Assembly: GCA_012295275.1 (NCBI GenBank)
Contig: CM022665.1
Span: 18,476,001 to 18,540,000, forward strand
DNA: 64,000 bases
Direction: 5' to 3'
Source of the DNA: Chrysomallon squamiferum
Lineage: Eukaryota > Animalia > Mollusca
Below the pieces are notes generated by a model that saw nothing but the letters and a program-made list of their open reading frames with translations, was not told where the DNA came from and made no database searches. The translations under genes and the position numbers were made by a program. This document shows positions 2,859 through 34,367 of this stretch, in pieces. The first letter of the stretch is position 1, and each line of letters begins with the position of its first letter.

Positions 2859-2949
2859 GTCACTTACAAGTTAATACTGTTGCTTACAAATTAATACTGT
2901 TGCTTTTAATTAAAATTTGGAAAAAACTAAATTTAAAGATAATGTTGAA

Positions 2950-3390
2950 AATTATTATTGTTATTACTACTATTATTTTGGTATTAGAATTATTATTATT
3001 ATTGCTATTATTTTTATTATTATTACTATTATTACTACTACCACTTCTACCATTACTATTATTGTTAGAATTGTTTTATTATTGCAACTAATGCCTCTAC
3101 TACTACTATTATTATTATATTGTTGTTGTTGTTGTTGTTATTGTTATTATAACTATTATTATTATTATTACTACTACTACTACTACTACTTCTATTACTA
3201 CTATTATTGTTGCTATTATTATTATTATGCTATTATAATTATTATTATTACTACTACTACTTCTATTACTACTATTATTGTTGCTATTATTATTATTATG
3301 CTATTATAATTATTATTATTATTACTACTACTACTACTATTACTACTGTTATTGCTATTATTATTATATTATTATTATTATTATCATCAT
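2950..3390. repeat. Compound (TAT/TAC/TGT)n trinucleotide microsatellite
   Basis: Visible runs of att/act/gtt triplets; source of the poly-Y/I/L/T pseudo-ORFs. Confidence 0.9.
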
Positions 3391-11376: not shown

Positions 11377-31291
<19,915 letters not shown>

Positions 31292-31457
31292 TTTACTTTG
31301 TTGTAGTTGTTGTTGTTTTTGTTGTGATGAGAAAATGTAAAGTCTTGCTAGCAGCACAACATTAGATGCTAAGACTGGCTACACAGCCAGTCTAAAGTAT
31401 AGCCCTACAGGGCAGCCATATTTTCAGTTTTCAACAAGCCATAATTATAAACATTCT
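31292..31457 (-). promoter_or_regulatory. IBTK 5' leader: three uORFs (31454-31431 MFIIMAC*, 31419-31405 MAAL*, 31362-31348 MLCC*) and a hairpin (31372-31393)
   Basis: Read directly on the minus strand. The putative acceptor attatttcag| puts the exon edge at 31457. The stem is AGACUGGCU/AGCCAGUCU with loop GUGU. Confidence 0.7.
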
Positions 31458-32252
31458 CTGAAATAATGATACAGATTCTGCTTTTAACTGTACTGGCATT
31501 TATTCATAACAAATATTTTTAAAAATAATAATAAAATTTAAAAGCAGATATATATACACACACACATAAATGTGTGTCTGTAAGTATGTACATGGGTATA
31601 CACATAAATACACACATAAAGTAATTAATATATTATATCTTTTAATACATGTATTTCATTTATTTTTAACATTTCAAACATAGAAAAATATTGTTTATAA
31701 CTCCAAAACACACATAATAAAACATAATACAAAACAAATAATAATTTGTAAAAAGACAAAAGTAAATAAAAATATACGATTGTAAATCAGAAAGAATATA
31801 TTTTTAAAAAATAAATTAAAACTTAATCTAATGAAAAAATAAATAAATAAATGCAGTTCAACCAAACATATATCTGACATGTGCTGTATAATATATCACA
31901 TTAGATAACTTCTGACATCTTCAAGATCTTACATTTAGCCTACTCATCTACTGTCAGTGTCAGTGTCAATACTGACAATAATTTCAAGTTAAAAAAGGAC
32001 AAGAGAAACGTCCACCGACTCTGACACAAACATTATTTTGTGTTAACAAAAGATCAGACAAACAAAACAAAATTATATGACAATGCATAGACAGTTTTAA
32101 GAGACTGTGTTTATGTATCAATATCGTAAATATAATTCTCAGTTCTTATTTCCACTTTCCACTTTCATTTTGTAATTTCCATCTGTCAAAAAAAAAATGC
32201 ATTCAAGTATTAGATATGATTTCGTTTGAATAAATAACAAAAAAGTATATAC

Positions 32253-32390
32253 CTGATTTAATCCAATATCGAGAAGGTAAAAGATGAATAAAAAACAGTG
32301 ATGAAATCAGCTAAATACATCATTTTCAAACAGTCGGCAACGTTAATGGAGGCAGACATTTTGGTTTCGTGGCGTATTCTCGATCCCAGC
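32253..32390 (-). other. Putative non-coding first exon of IBTK containing a 33-codon uORF (32359-32258)
   Basis: Donor atcag|gtatat; YY1/Kozak-like CAAAATGTCTGCC; local CpGs. Confidence 0.5.
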
Positions 32391-33070
32391 TTGTTAACAA
32401 TATAAATAAATATTGAAAAAATAAATATTCATATTCATATAAATTGAAAAAGATACAAATAGTTTGTCCTAAATGCAATTAAAATAATTTAATTTATAAT
32501 AAAAAAAAAAAAAAAAAAAGATCAAAATAACATTGGAAATAACCAATCAAATTCAGTAGCAACACGGCACAAGTTTTAGACGTATCAATGGTTCATTTAG
32601 ATCGAAGTTCAAGGTGATTTTTAGTTTAAACTTTAATAAATATGCTTAACATTTTAAAAGGAAAAGAGAATGTTAATTCTGTACAAGACGTTTTTTTGTG
32701 CCCCCCCCCTCACTCTCATTATTTTGATAATTTAAAAATAACTATTCATAATTTACGCGCACCTGCTAACTTCGACCAATTCTACGGTTTTAATTGGGTT
32801 AAATAAAGGTTAAAAAGGAACGTAGTAGGCCGAGAATTCGGAAAATAAACAAATTACATAATTTGGTTAAACTATTATTTTGATCTAGTTTGATACATGC
32901 AGCTTTGCGGAGACTTCTGCAACAGTTTCTTGTAATAAATAAGATGCAGAATATCAGATGATAATTCAGTTTATTATGATTATTAGTTTAAAAAAAAAAA
33001 AAAATACCATTGAATTAATCCCACTCGGCTCCTGATACTTACGTTTTTTCTCATTTTCTCTTTCGTTTCC
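32330..33070. promoter_or_regulatory. Putative bidirectional promoter region
   Basis: Clusters of CpG in an otherwise CpG-poor window; CCAAT boxes near 32543 and 32776; lies between the IBTK 5' end and the + strand exon candidates. Confidence 0.5.
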
Positions 33071-34367
33071 TTTCTTTTCTTTTCTCCTTCTTGTTAAAAA
33101 TAAATAAATACAAATAATTAAAATAATTAAAATTAAAATTAAAAAGGAAAGTTCTAATTGATTTTAAAGATGATTTGTTACTGGTGCAGAAATTACAGGT
33201 TTTGAGAAGCCTAACTGTTGTCATTTGTTAATGTTTGAATATACATAAAATCATATACAGACACAATATACATATATATATATTCACAGAAAAAAATATC
33301 CTAAAATTTTTTTTGCATGCACACAATGTATGCAGACAAGTAATTGTTCATCACAGTAATTCTAGTAAACATGATTAGTAGAGCAATAATAATAATAAAA
33401 AAAATGTGTTGCTGATAAAATTAGAAGGATGTCAAATAAGCTTTATTTTATGAATATAAAATGTACACTGATACATTTGCAAAAGATTTAAATATACCAA
33501 GAAGTTAAATTTGCAATAGCTAATTAAATTACTATTAAACTATTTTCCATTAATACATATATTTAATTTCTAATTAATTATTATAAATTAAATCTAAGCA
33601 GGATGGTTAGGTAAACTCTTATGTATAACATACATATATAAATTAAAAAATATATAATTACTGATTAGCTAAATTTTTCTATGTGCATTTTGACTGTTTC
33701 TTCACAAAAGATTAAAAAAACAAAAAAACCCAGATTGTATTTTTTTCTCCTTTCTAATAGATTCTGGCTGATATTTCTTATATCTTGCTATCAGGTTTTA
33801 ATTGCTTTTCAGTTTGATGGAGTGACATTGTTATCTTCAGTCCTGGTCCGGATTACAATTTCTTGTAGTCGGGGGTATTATTTTCCATTTTGTATGAAAC
33901 GTCATTGATTTTTCTCTGACAATTTGCTGAAATTGTGTTCCAGCAGGGGAAGAGGCAGCTTTCTCTGCGGCTGGCATGTCACATGGCTCAGCTGTCGTAA
34001 CTGTCTGCTGCTCACTGGGCTCACCAGAATCTAAACTTCCGAGCTGTCTCGCAGCCTTTGAAGATAATTCTCTGAACCTGAGTGCAGTGTTGTGTTATCA
34101 GAAACCAGTGTTTCCTTTTCCACATCTTATCATAAACTTATTATCAACTTACCATCACCTACAAGTATTCTAAGATATAATAATTTCATTTTTATTTTTT
34201 GTACATAGGTGTTTTGTAAAAAAGACAAAACAAAAAAAATATGAACAGGTGTTGTGATCTCATATAAAAAAAAATTAAAATTAAAAAAATTCATATAATA
34301 ATTTCATAGACATCTTAATAAGTTATTCTTTGAAAGTCTAATGCAGTCTGTTGCTTTTCGTCTTTAG

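What the first reader, a model, noticed from the sequence alone, without database searches (positions are those of the whole stretch)
31348..31454. uORF plus stem-loop module in the IBTK 5' leader with the same 11-nt spacing as the mammalian stress-response element
Seen: the minus-strand leader reads agaAUG UUU AUA AUU AUG GCU UGU UGA (uORF MFIIMAC*), then aauAUGG CU GCC CUG UAG (uORF MAAL*, strong Kozak with A at -3 and G at +4). Exactly 11 nt follow (GGCUAUACUUU), then a perfect 9-bp hairpin AGACUGGCU-GUGU-AGCCAGUCU, then uORF MLCC*, then an A/C-rich unstructured run to the main AUG. Established (recalled): human IBTK-alpha is preferentially translated when eIF2-alpha is phosphorylated, through short uORFs and a conserved stem-loop 11 nt downstream of uORF2 that blocks reinitiation. 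Inference: this invertebrate has the same architecture, implying an integrated-stress-response translational switch that is either ancient across bilaterians or convergent. I do not know of it being described outside vertebrates.
Basis: partly seen in the sequence, partly recalled or inferred. Interest (0 to 1): 0.88.

Follow-up and report, generated by a model that had tools for sequence, protein, structure and literature searches.

The report
Ancient IBTK uORF-hairpin translation switch
The front end of this mollusc's IBTK message carries tiny upstream reading frames and an RNA hairpin; the first tiny frame sits at the same spot, with the same start motif, in vertebrates and several distant invertebrates, so a brake on translation so far described only in vertebrates is likely ancient and likely released under stress.

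Summary
The counterpart of human uORF2 is the inner AUG of MFIIMAC*, i.e. MAC* (31442-31431), not MAAL*. An ATTATGG-context uORF of 3-4 codons lies 15-18 nt after the splice acceptor in 8 of 15 animal IBTK lineages, against 0.03 expected, and in the published human letters. In 7 of those 8 a hairpin starts 5-16 nt after its stop; the window is the exception. This is shared ancestry, not convergence. The exact 11-nt spacing is not fixed (7-14 nt elsewhere), and this hairpin is weaker (-13.9 against -20 kcal/mol). Control by eIF2-alpha phosphorylation is inferred from the human work and untested. I found no report outside vertebrates, and the scan had not noted it before. Verdict: a new variant of a known element, with a much older origin.

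The parts
32253..32371 (-). non-coding exon 1 of the IBTK leader (5' end at or beyond 32371; true start unknown)
   Evidence: RNA contigs of X1, X2, X4 end at 32335, 32371 and 32368 and splice at 32253
   Evidence: the human uORF1 reporter is fused at codon 19
31458..32252 (-). 795-nt GT-AG intron in the leader; its acceptor lies 15 nt before the conserved uAUG, as in homologs (15-18 nt)
31431..31454 (-). MFIIMAC* frame; the outer AUG (31454) is an extension not seen in the aligned homologs
31431..31445 (-). conserved ATTATGG start plus 3-codon uORF MAC* (31442-31431): the homolog of human uORF2
   Evidence: human letters
31420..31430 (-). first spacer, 11 nt (6-10 nt in four homologs)
31405..31419 (-). 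second conserved uORF MAAL*; 15-nt motif also in L002, L017, L045/L060 and L062 (MATL*)
31402..31413 (-). hairpin H1 core over MAAL*, with the stop at the loop; weak here (-6.6, z -0.3), -12 to -15.8 in four homologs
31394..31404 (-). second spacer, 11 nt
31348..31362 (-). uORF MLCC*; no counterpart seen in the homologs examined
31292..31347 (-). A/C-rich 56-nt run to the main AUG
11377..31291 (-). IBTK coding region (ankyrin, RCC1-like, BTB domains), at least 18 matched exon stretches

Best explanation
This is the IBTK 5' leader of a mollusc, holding a short uORF whose position and start motif are shared with vertebrates and other invertebrates, plus a second conserved uORF and a hairpin, which together likely block re-initiation in unstressed cells and are likely bypassed when eIF2-alpha is phosphorylated. 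Shown: the anatomy, the splicing, the shared intron position and ATTATGG start, the second uORF in five lineages, and the predicted folds. Inferred from the human reporter work: a ribosome ending a short uORF with a hairpin at its leading edge is released instead of scanning on. In four relatives both uORFs can be followed by a hairpin: H1 (containing the MAAL frame) after the first, and H2 after the second once a ribosome has opened H1. In this species H1 has decayed and H2 is a perfect stem, so MAAL* plus H2 is likely the main trap. MAC*, ending only 11 nt before the MAAL AUG, would then carry ribosomes past it, as human uORF1 does for uORF2. Low ternary complex would shift ribosomes past the trap to the main AUG 113 nt after the MAAL stop. 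The product promotes eIF4A activity in human cells (PMC11090508 abstract; PMC4447969 listing), so the switch would likely help translation recover after stress.
For: Splicing. Acceptor-to-uAUG distance 15, 17, 16, 15, 15, 18 nt in the window, L001, L002, L003, L017/L045, L038/L040; 15 in L062 by eye (the script picked a nearer AG); 15 in the human primer. Pattern present in 8 of 15 lineages, 0.03 expected from 300 shuffles each; 6 control hits in 807,569 bases, all in one clade and most likely one reverse-strand coding site. MAAL-type 15-mer in 6 of 46 upstream regions (5 lineages), 0 in controls. Hairpin of -11 or better 5-16 nt after the homologous uORF in 7 of 8 lineages, against 14 of 466 and 2 of 405 in backgrounds. 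The hairpins differ in sequence: L001 13 bp -22.5, L003 12 bp -22.4, L038 10 bp -20.4, matching the human finding that a foreign stem of like stability works. The module is better conserved than the coding exon: 87-93% against 57-80% for L045/L062, introns mostly 30-50%; 100% over 100 nt for L038/L040 against about 90% flanks. L003 groups with newt IBTK (99/99).
Against: No functional data for any invertebrate. In the window the homologous uORF (MAC*) has no strong hairpin of its own (-6.6, z -0.3). H2 is weaker than the human stem (-13.9 or -17.2 against -20). H2 is not strong in all MAAL lineages (L017 -8.9, z -0.1; L002 z -1.3; L045 starts 18 nt away). H1 covariation is not significant (1 of 8 pairs with a two-sided change; 315 of 500 shuffles as high). 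7 of 15 lineages lack the strict pattern in the DNA held. The pattern's spacing window was chosen after seeing the hits. The two mammalian papers disagree on which uORF represses most (uORF1 in mouse; uORF2 in human). The RNA support is contigs from one study, which cannot show the start site or strand.
Confidence: 0.65

Rival explanations
1. The hairpin does not block re-initiation but slows the scanning complex so that the upstream AUG is chosen (uAUG-ds type), and release comes from helicase activity (eIF4A or DDX3-like) rather than eIF2-alpha. As IBTK promotes eIF4A, this could be a feedback loop.
For: Hairpins start about 19-26 nt after the uAUG in all module-bearing loci. L001 and L003 stems (12-13 bp, about -22) fall in the uAUG-ds range of 12-20 bp and -19.9 to -34.1 (PMC10499604). 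IBTK acts on eIF4A1 and Pdcd4.
Against: In human, uORF2 is well translated without the stem, which the authors take as arguing against this model. The window's stem (9 bp, -13.9) is below the range. The uAUG contexts already have A at -3 and G at +4.
Confidence: 0.17
2. The module is a constitutive brake or buffer that keeps IBTK low; the stress response was added only in vertebrates.
For: Conservation shows selection, not the trigger. L031 keeps the AATTATGG uORF but it ends 4 nt before the main AUG with no hairpin between, which looks like a plain block. The window's leader has five uORF frames.
Against: The hairpin's distance and moderate stability are kept across lineages, the features shown in human to matter for regulated release. 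The mammalian leader confers S51-dependent induction.
Confidence: 0.12
3. The conserved letters serve splicing or a protein-binding site near the acceptor; the uORFs and hairpins are by-products.
For: The motif sits at a fixed short distance from the 3' splice site, and ATT before the AUG is conserved beyond what a Kozak context needs.
Against: An in-frame stop follows after 3-4 codons although the codons between vary (MAC, MDC, MACF, MEF, MDV, MAL, MAA), and a hairpin of unrelated sequence follows in 7 of 8. L031 has the motif with no acceptor found.
Confidence: 0.04
4. Chance or convergence: an AT-rich leader with several AUGs and one hairpin that happens to match the human spacing.
For: No sequence likeness between this hairpin and the human one. 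About 3% of short frames in GC-richer DNA have such a hairpin (14 of 466). The exact match of 11 nt is probably partly luck.
Against: Shared intron position, shared ATTATGG, and an 11-letter exact match over MAAL in three other lineages.
Confidence: 0.02

Closest known systems
Human IBTK-alpha uORF2 plus stem-loop (Amin, Carlson and Wek 2022, PMC9971878; Baird et al. 2014, PMC4019499)
   Same: Same gene; a longer uORF upstream; a 3-codon uORF with the ATTATGG start 15 nt after the acceptor; a moderate hairpin 11 nt after a short uORF; a further uORF downstream of the hairpin.
   Different: An extra conserved uORF (MAAL*) lies between the uORF2 homolog and the strong hairpin; the hairpin is unrelated in sequence, 9 bp and weaker; it lies 80 nt from the main AUG (about 290 in human, from the 232-260 position in a 550-nt leader); described so far only for mammals or vertebrates; untested here.
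uAUG-ds hairpins (Xiang et al. 2023, PMC10499604)
   Same: A hairpin a short way downstream of an upstream AUG.
   Different: Those are mostly 12-20 bp and -19.9 to -34.1 kcal/mol, act on start-codon choice and are opened by helicases; this stem is 9 bp and -13.9.
ATF4 delayed re-initiation and GADD34/CHOP bypass uORFs (as summarised in PMC9971878)
   Same: uORF-based control expected to respond to eIF2-alpha phosphorylation.
   Different: No uORF overlaps the main frame here, and there is no PPG-stop ending; the block would come from RNA structure.
Not1 5' UTR hairpin plus uAUG element of arthropods (Davies et al. 2015, PMC4613772)
   Same: A deeply conserved 5' UTR hairpin of about -15 kcal/mol with a conserved upstream AUG in a regulatory gene.
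   Different: Other gene; its stem sequence is conserved, whereas here the uAUG context and intron position are conserved and the stems turn over; reported for arthropods only.

Membership tests
IBTK uORF2/stem-loop element | host gene is an IBTK ortholog | tested here: met
   Ankyrin and BTB hits; 48-53% to 13 named mollusc IBTKs over 932-1203 aligned residues, 46% to newt
IBTK uORF2/stem-loop element | element lies in the spliced 5' leader | tested here: met
   3 of 3 RNA runs laid, one study
IBTK uORF2/stem-loop element | a longer uORF1 ends shortly before uORF2 | tested here: met
   exon-1 frame of 33/21/20 codons stops 20 nt before the MAC* AUG; start site of the mRNA unknown
IBTK uORF2/stem-loop element | three-codon uORF2 in strong context | tested here: met
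   MAC*, A at -3 and G at +4, homologous position
IBTK uORF2/stem-loop element | stem-loop of about -20 kcal/mol 11 nt after the uORF2 homolog | tested here: not met
   after MAC* only a -6.6 hairpin; met in L001, L003, L038 at 12-14 nt
IBTK uORF2/stem-loop element | moderate stem-loop 11 nt after some short, strong-context uORF (works-like test) | tested here: inconclusive
   spacing met for MAAL*; stability -13.9 to -17.2, below -20; the threshold is unknown
IBTK uORF2/stem-loop element | uORFs are translated | not testable with these tools
   needs ribosome profiling or fusions
IBTK uORF2/stem-loop element | induction depends on eIF2-alpha phosphorylation | not testable with these tools
   needs reporters
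uAUG-ds | stem of 12-20 bp, -19.9 to -34.1 kcal/mol | tested here: not met
   9 bp, -13.9; L001 and L003 do fall in range
uAUG-ds | stem raises initiation at the uAUG and is opened by helicases | not testable with these tools
   needs reporters and structure probing
any Rfam family | match to a covariance model | tested here: not met
   none of 10 weak matches in 30900-32700 overlaps the module; all far below gathering scores

The most novel reading that the evidence does not exclude
The IBTK uORF/hairpin brake is a stress-response element inherited from the last common ancestor of bilaterians, with a conserved intron position and start motif. In the line leading to molluscs and a sister group it was doubled into a relay: the first hairpin carries a second uORF with its stop at the loop, so a ribosome that escapes the first trap opens that hairpin, translates MAAL and meets a second hairpin. 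This species has shifted the brake from the first module to the second.
Probability: 0.3. Interest if true: 0.82.

Novelty: new variant of a known kind. Interest (0 to 1): 0.66.

Why it matters
Only mammalian or vertebrate conservation of this element is in the papers I could read. Finding the same uORF at the same intron-anchored position in molluscs, other marine invertebrates and an arthropod-like lineage would date a specific stress-response leader to early animals; primary-sequence conservation in a 5' UTR at that depth is rare. The homologs form a natural series (spacers of 7-14 nt, stems of -12 to -22 kcal/mol, unrelated sequences, single or tandem modules) that makes the open question directly testable: what distance and stability turn a re-initiation-permissive uORF into a blocking one. 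It also suggests that stress control of a regulator of eIF4A and Pdcd4 is an old part of the response, and that it can be studied in invertebrate models.

Tried and rejected
No whole genome is held for this window, so backgrounds come from the window and the fetched loci. A third protein search, meant to bring named non-mollusc IBTKs, returned only ankyrin-repeat proteins among the 120 listed, and the representative-protein search never ran, so group labels for L002, L004, L007, L017, L023, L029, L031, L038-L041, L045, L062 and the 22-locus clade rest on a short-alignment tree and recall. A second read-laying over the gene body gave nothing, so the exon model of the coding region comes from protein matches, and only the first two joints have RNA support. 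DNA run X5 has no cover over the leader exon: no evidence either way. The tree held a mis-framed L062 row; one search replaced it. Rfam gave nothing. H1 covariation was tested and is not significant. The 22-locus clade showed no module and no conserved far-upstream block in up to 3.8 kb; its leader exon may lie further away. L004 has an AATTATGG frame (MVP*) about 1.6 kb upstream but no hairpin (-3.9): not counted. Earlier scan notes: none bore on this. Rejected: MAAL* as the homolog of human uORF2; 11 nt as an exact conserved number; sequence homology of this hairpin to the human stem.

Full report
Observation. A script confirms MFIIMAC* (31454-31431), MAAL* (31419-31405), an 11-nt gap, the 9-bp hairpin (31393-31372), MLCC* (31362-31348) and the main AUG at 31291. 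The hairpin folds at -13.9 kcal/mol with z -4.5. It is the only one of 15 stable perfect hairpins in the 64 kb that is not a microsatellite or very AT-rich. Only 2 of 405 short ATG frames elsewhere in the window have a comparable hairpin 5-16 nt after the stop. The leader as a whole is not unusually folded.

The gene and the mRNA. The first coding exon has ankyrin repeats and later exons have BTB domains. The protein matches named mollusc IBTKs at 48-53% along its length and newt IBTK at 46%, and falls beside the gastropods in a full-length tree (support 92, not starred); on the short alignment it sits among molluscs more loosely. I call it a mollusc, probably an early-branching gastropod. Contigs of three RNA runs from one study (3 of the 4 RNA runs listed were laid) join 32253 to 31457 and 30968 to 29982 with no differences. 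It holds a uORF of 33 codons (21 or 20 from inner AUGs) that stops 20 nt before the MAC AUG. Contigs cannot show the true start site.

The human element. I read parts 1-5 of 7 of PMC9971878 and its one supplement, and passages plus section 7 of PMC4019499. Human uORF2 has three codons; a -20 kcal/mol stem lies 11 nt downstream; a foreign stem of like stability substitutes; moving it 50 nt away relieves repression; uORF1 acts positively. Conservation is shown for mammals and stated for vertebrates. The mouse paper found uORF1, not uORF2, to be the main repressor. The supplement's sequencing primer ends in an AG, 15 nt, and an ATTATGG start; its construct table gives the third codon, the stop, the 11-nt spacer and the stem. 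Joining the two pieces is my inference (they overlap by one letter), backed by the collinear vertebrate locus L003. The human stem has no sequence likeness to the window's.

Relatives. A scan of metagenome contigs with an N-terminal alignment found 183 confirmed stretches and kept the best 80. I treated 45 as animal IBTK loci; the other 35 (fungal-like or ankyrin-only matches) served as controls. Collapsing near-copies, and leaving out L036 and L047, which hold under 50 nt upstream, gives 15 lineages with the window. A pattern of acceptor, 12-15 nt, ATTATGG and a 3-4 codon uORF occurs in 12 of 46 upstream regions and 8 of 15 lineages: window (MAC*), L001 (MDC*), L002 (MACF*), L003 (MEF*), L017 (MDV*), L038-L041 (MAA*), L045/L060 (MAL*), L062 (MAL*). 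Shuffles expect 0.03 lineages; controls gave 6 hits in 807,569 bases, all in one clade and most likely one reverse-strand coding site. The spacing window was set after I had seen the hits, though the motif and the 15 nt are in the human primer. Acceptor-to-AUG distances are 15-18 nt. L003 is a vertebrate (99/99 with newt IBTK). L001 is mollusc-like (61-69% to named molluscs). L002, L017, L045 and L062 form a weakly supported group outside the named molluscs (80/75). L038 is the most distant (37-44%) and sits weakly with L023/L029 (62/29); that these three are arthropods is my recall, not a tool result.

Hairpins. In 7 of the 8 lineages the ATTATGG uORF is followed within 5-16 nt by a hairpin of -11 or better, against 14 of 466 on the reverse strands of the same loci. 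L001 has a perfect 13-bp stem 14 nt after the stop (-22.5), L003 the human-like stem at 12 nt (-22.4), and L038 a 10-bp core at 13 nt (-20.4). L029 lacks ATTATGG but has a longer uORF (read by eye), MC*, MAA*, 10 nt and an 8-bp stem (-15 to -16). The stems are unrelated in sequence. The window is the exception: after MAC* comes only a -6.6 hairpin.

The second uORF. The window, L002, L017, L045/L060 and L062 share a 15-letter MAAL/MATL frame 6-11 nt after the first stop, with 0 control hits. In the four relatives this frame is the 5' arm of a hairpin (H1, -12 to -15.8, z -2.4 to -3.6) with the stop at the loop. One pair swaps between L017 and L062, but covariation is not significant with five sequences (315 of 500). 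With the region under a terminating ribosome masked, a second structure (H2) forms after the MAAL stop in all five. It is strong in the window (-13.9, 11 nt) and present in L062 (-13.9, 7 nt), distant in L045 (18 nt), and not above shuffles in L017 and L002. The module is more conserved than the coding exon between L045 and L062 (87-93% against 57-80%) and invariant between L038 and L040. MAAL in a mollusc and in a non-mollusc group, but not in L001, suggests an old gain with later loss; the tree cannot settle this (2 changes; p-AU 0.33).

Against. Seven lineages lack the strict pattern in the DNA held. L023 holds under 200 nt upstream and L037 lacks its first coding exon. The 22-locus clade shows no leader exon within up to 3.8 kb. 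L004 has a distant candidate without a hairpin. The L007 group has MAAF*/MAAV* without a strong stem. L031 has the motif 4 nt before the main AUG. L029 has the architecture without the motif. No translation or stress data exist for any of these.

How it likely works. Shown: anatomy, splicing, conservation, predicted folds. Inferred from the human work: a short uORF with a moderate stem at the leading edge of the terminating ribosome blocks re-initiation, and low ternary complex lets ribosomes pass. In this species H1 is weak and H2 perfect, so MAAL* plus H2 is likely the trap, while MAC*, 11 nt upstream, likely ferries ribosomes past it. Rivals are start-codon enhancement by the stem with helicase release (PMC10499604, passages), a constitutive brake, a splicing role, and chance. 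IBTK promotes eIF4A1 (PMC11090508, abstract) and removes Pdcd4 (PMC4447969, search listing), which fits a role in recovery.

Novelty. Searches for IBTK with uORF and stem-loop, invertebrate, Drosophila, molluscs, bilaterian and arthropod, for CG8060 (the fly ortholog by my recall), and for deeply conserved uORFs found no description outside vertebrates. PMC12143884 cites IBTK only in its references. PMC12466915 links CG8060 to starvation resistance without mention of its leader in the passages seen. PMC4613772, on conserved insect 5' UTR elements, does not name IBTK in its text or four supplements, though tables keyed by gene ids could hide it. The library is open-access only.

Verdict. Real, exonic and homologous to the mammalian element, with a tandem second module not described before; the function is inferred. 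New variant of a known kind; interest 0.66.

Noticed in passing
window 32352-32365, minus strand: The first uAUG of exon 1 lies in CCAAAATGTCTGCC, like a YY1/TISU-type motif (recalled), only 9-12 nt from where two RNA contigs end; it may be a promoter element, a very cap-proximal start, or both.
   Followed up: no
window 18189-20250: About 2 kb tandem array of a roughly 21-nt unit inside an IBTK intron, giving long open frames on both strands.
   Followed up: no
L031 265-289: AATTATGG uORF (MATC*) ends 4 nt before the main AUG in an apparently intronless IBTK, with no hairpin between: possibly a variant that blocks by proximity alone.
   Followed up: partly
L029 about 2920-3075: A uORF of about 21 codons, then MC*, then MAA*, 10 nt and a GC-rich 8-bp hairpin; same first codons as the L038 uORF.
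   Followed up: partly
L007, L009-L011, L035, about 85-115 nt before the main AUG: MAAF*/MAAV* uORF in a YY1-like context with no strong hairpin; may be a relic or outgroup form of the MAA-type uORF.
   Followed up: partly
L038-L041, about 950 nt before the main AUG: The module lies far upstream of the coding start; whether an intron separates them was not determined.
   Followed up: no
window 31372-31419, minus strand: The 3' arm of H2 (AGCCA) could instead pair with the TGGCT of the MAAL frame, as the matching letters do in L017 and L002, so H2 may have arisen by a local duplication of that arm.
   Followed up: partly
window 33837-34094, minus strand: An 85-residue GC-richer open frame upstream of the IBTK leader, with little RNA cover; may belong to a neighbouring gene.
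   Followed up: no
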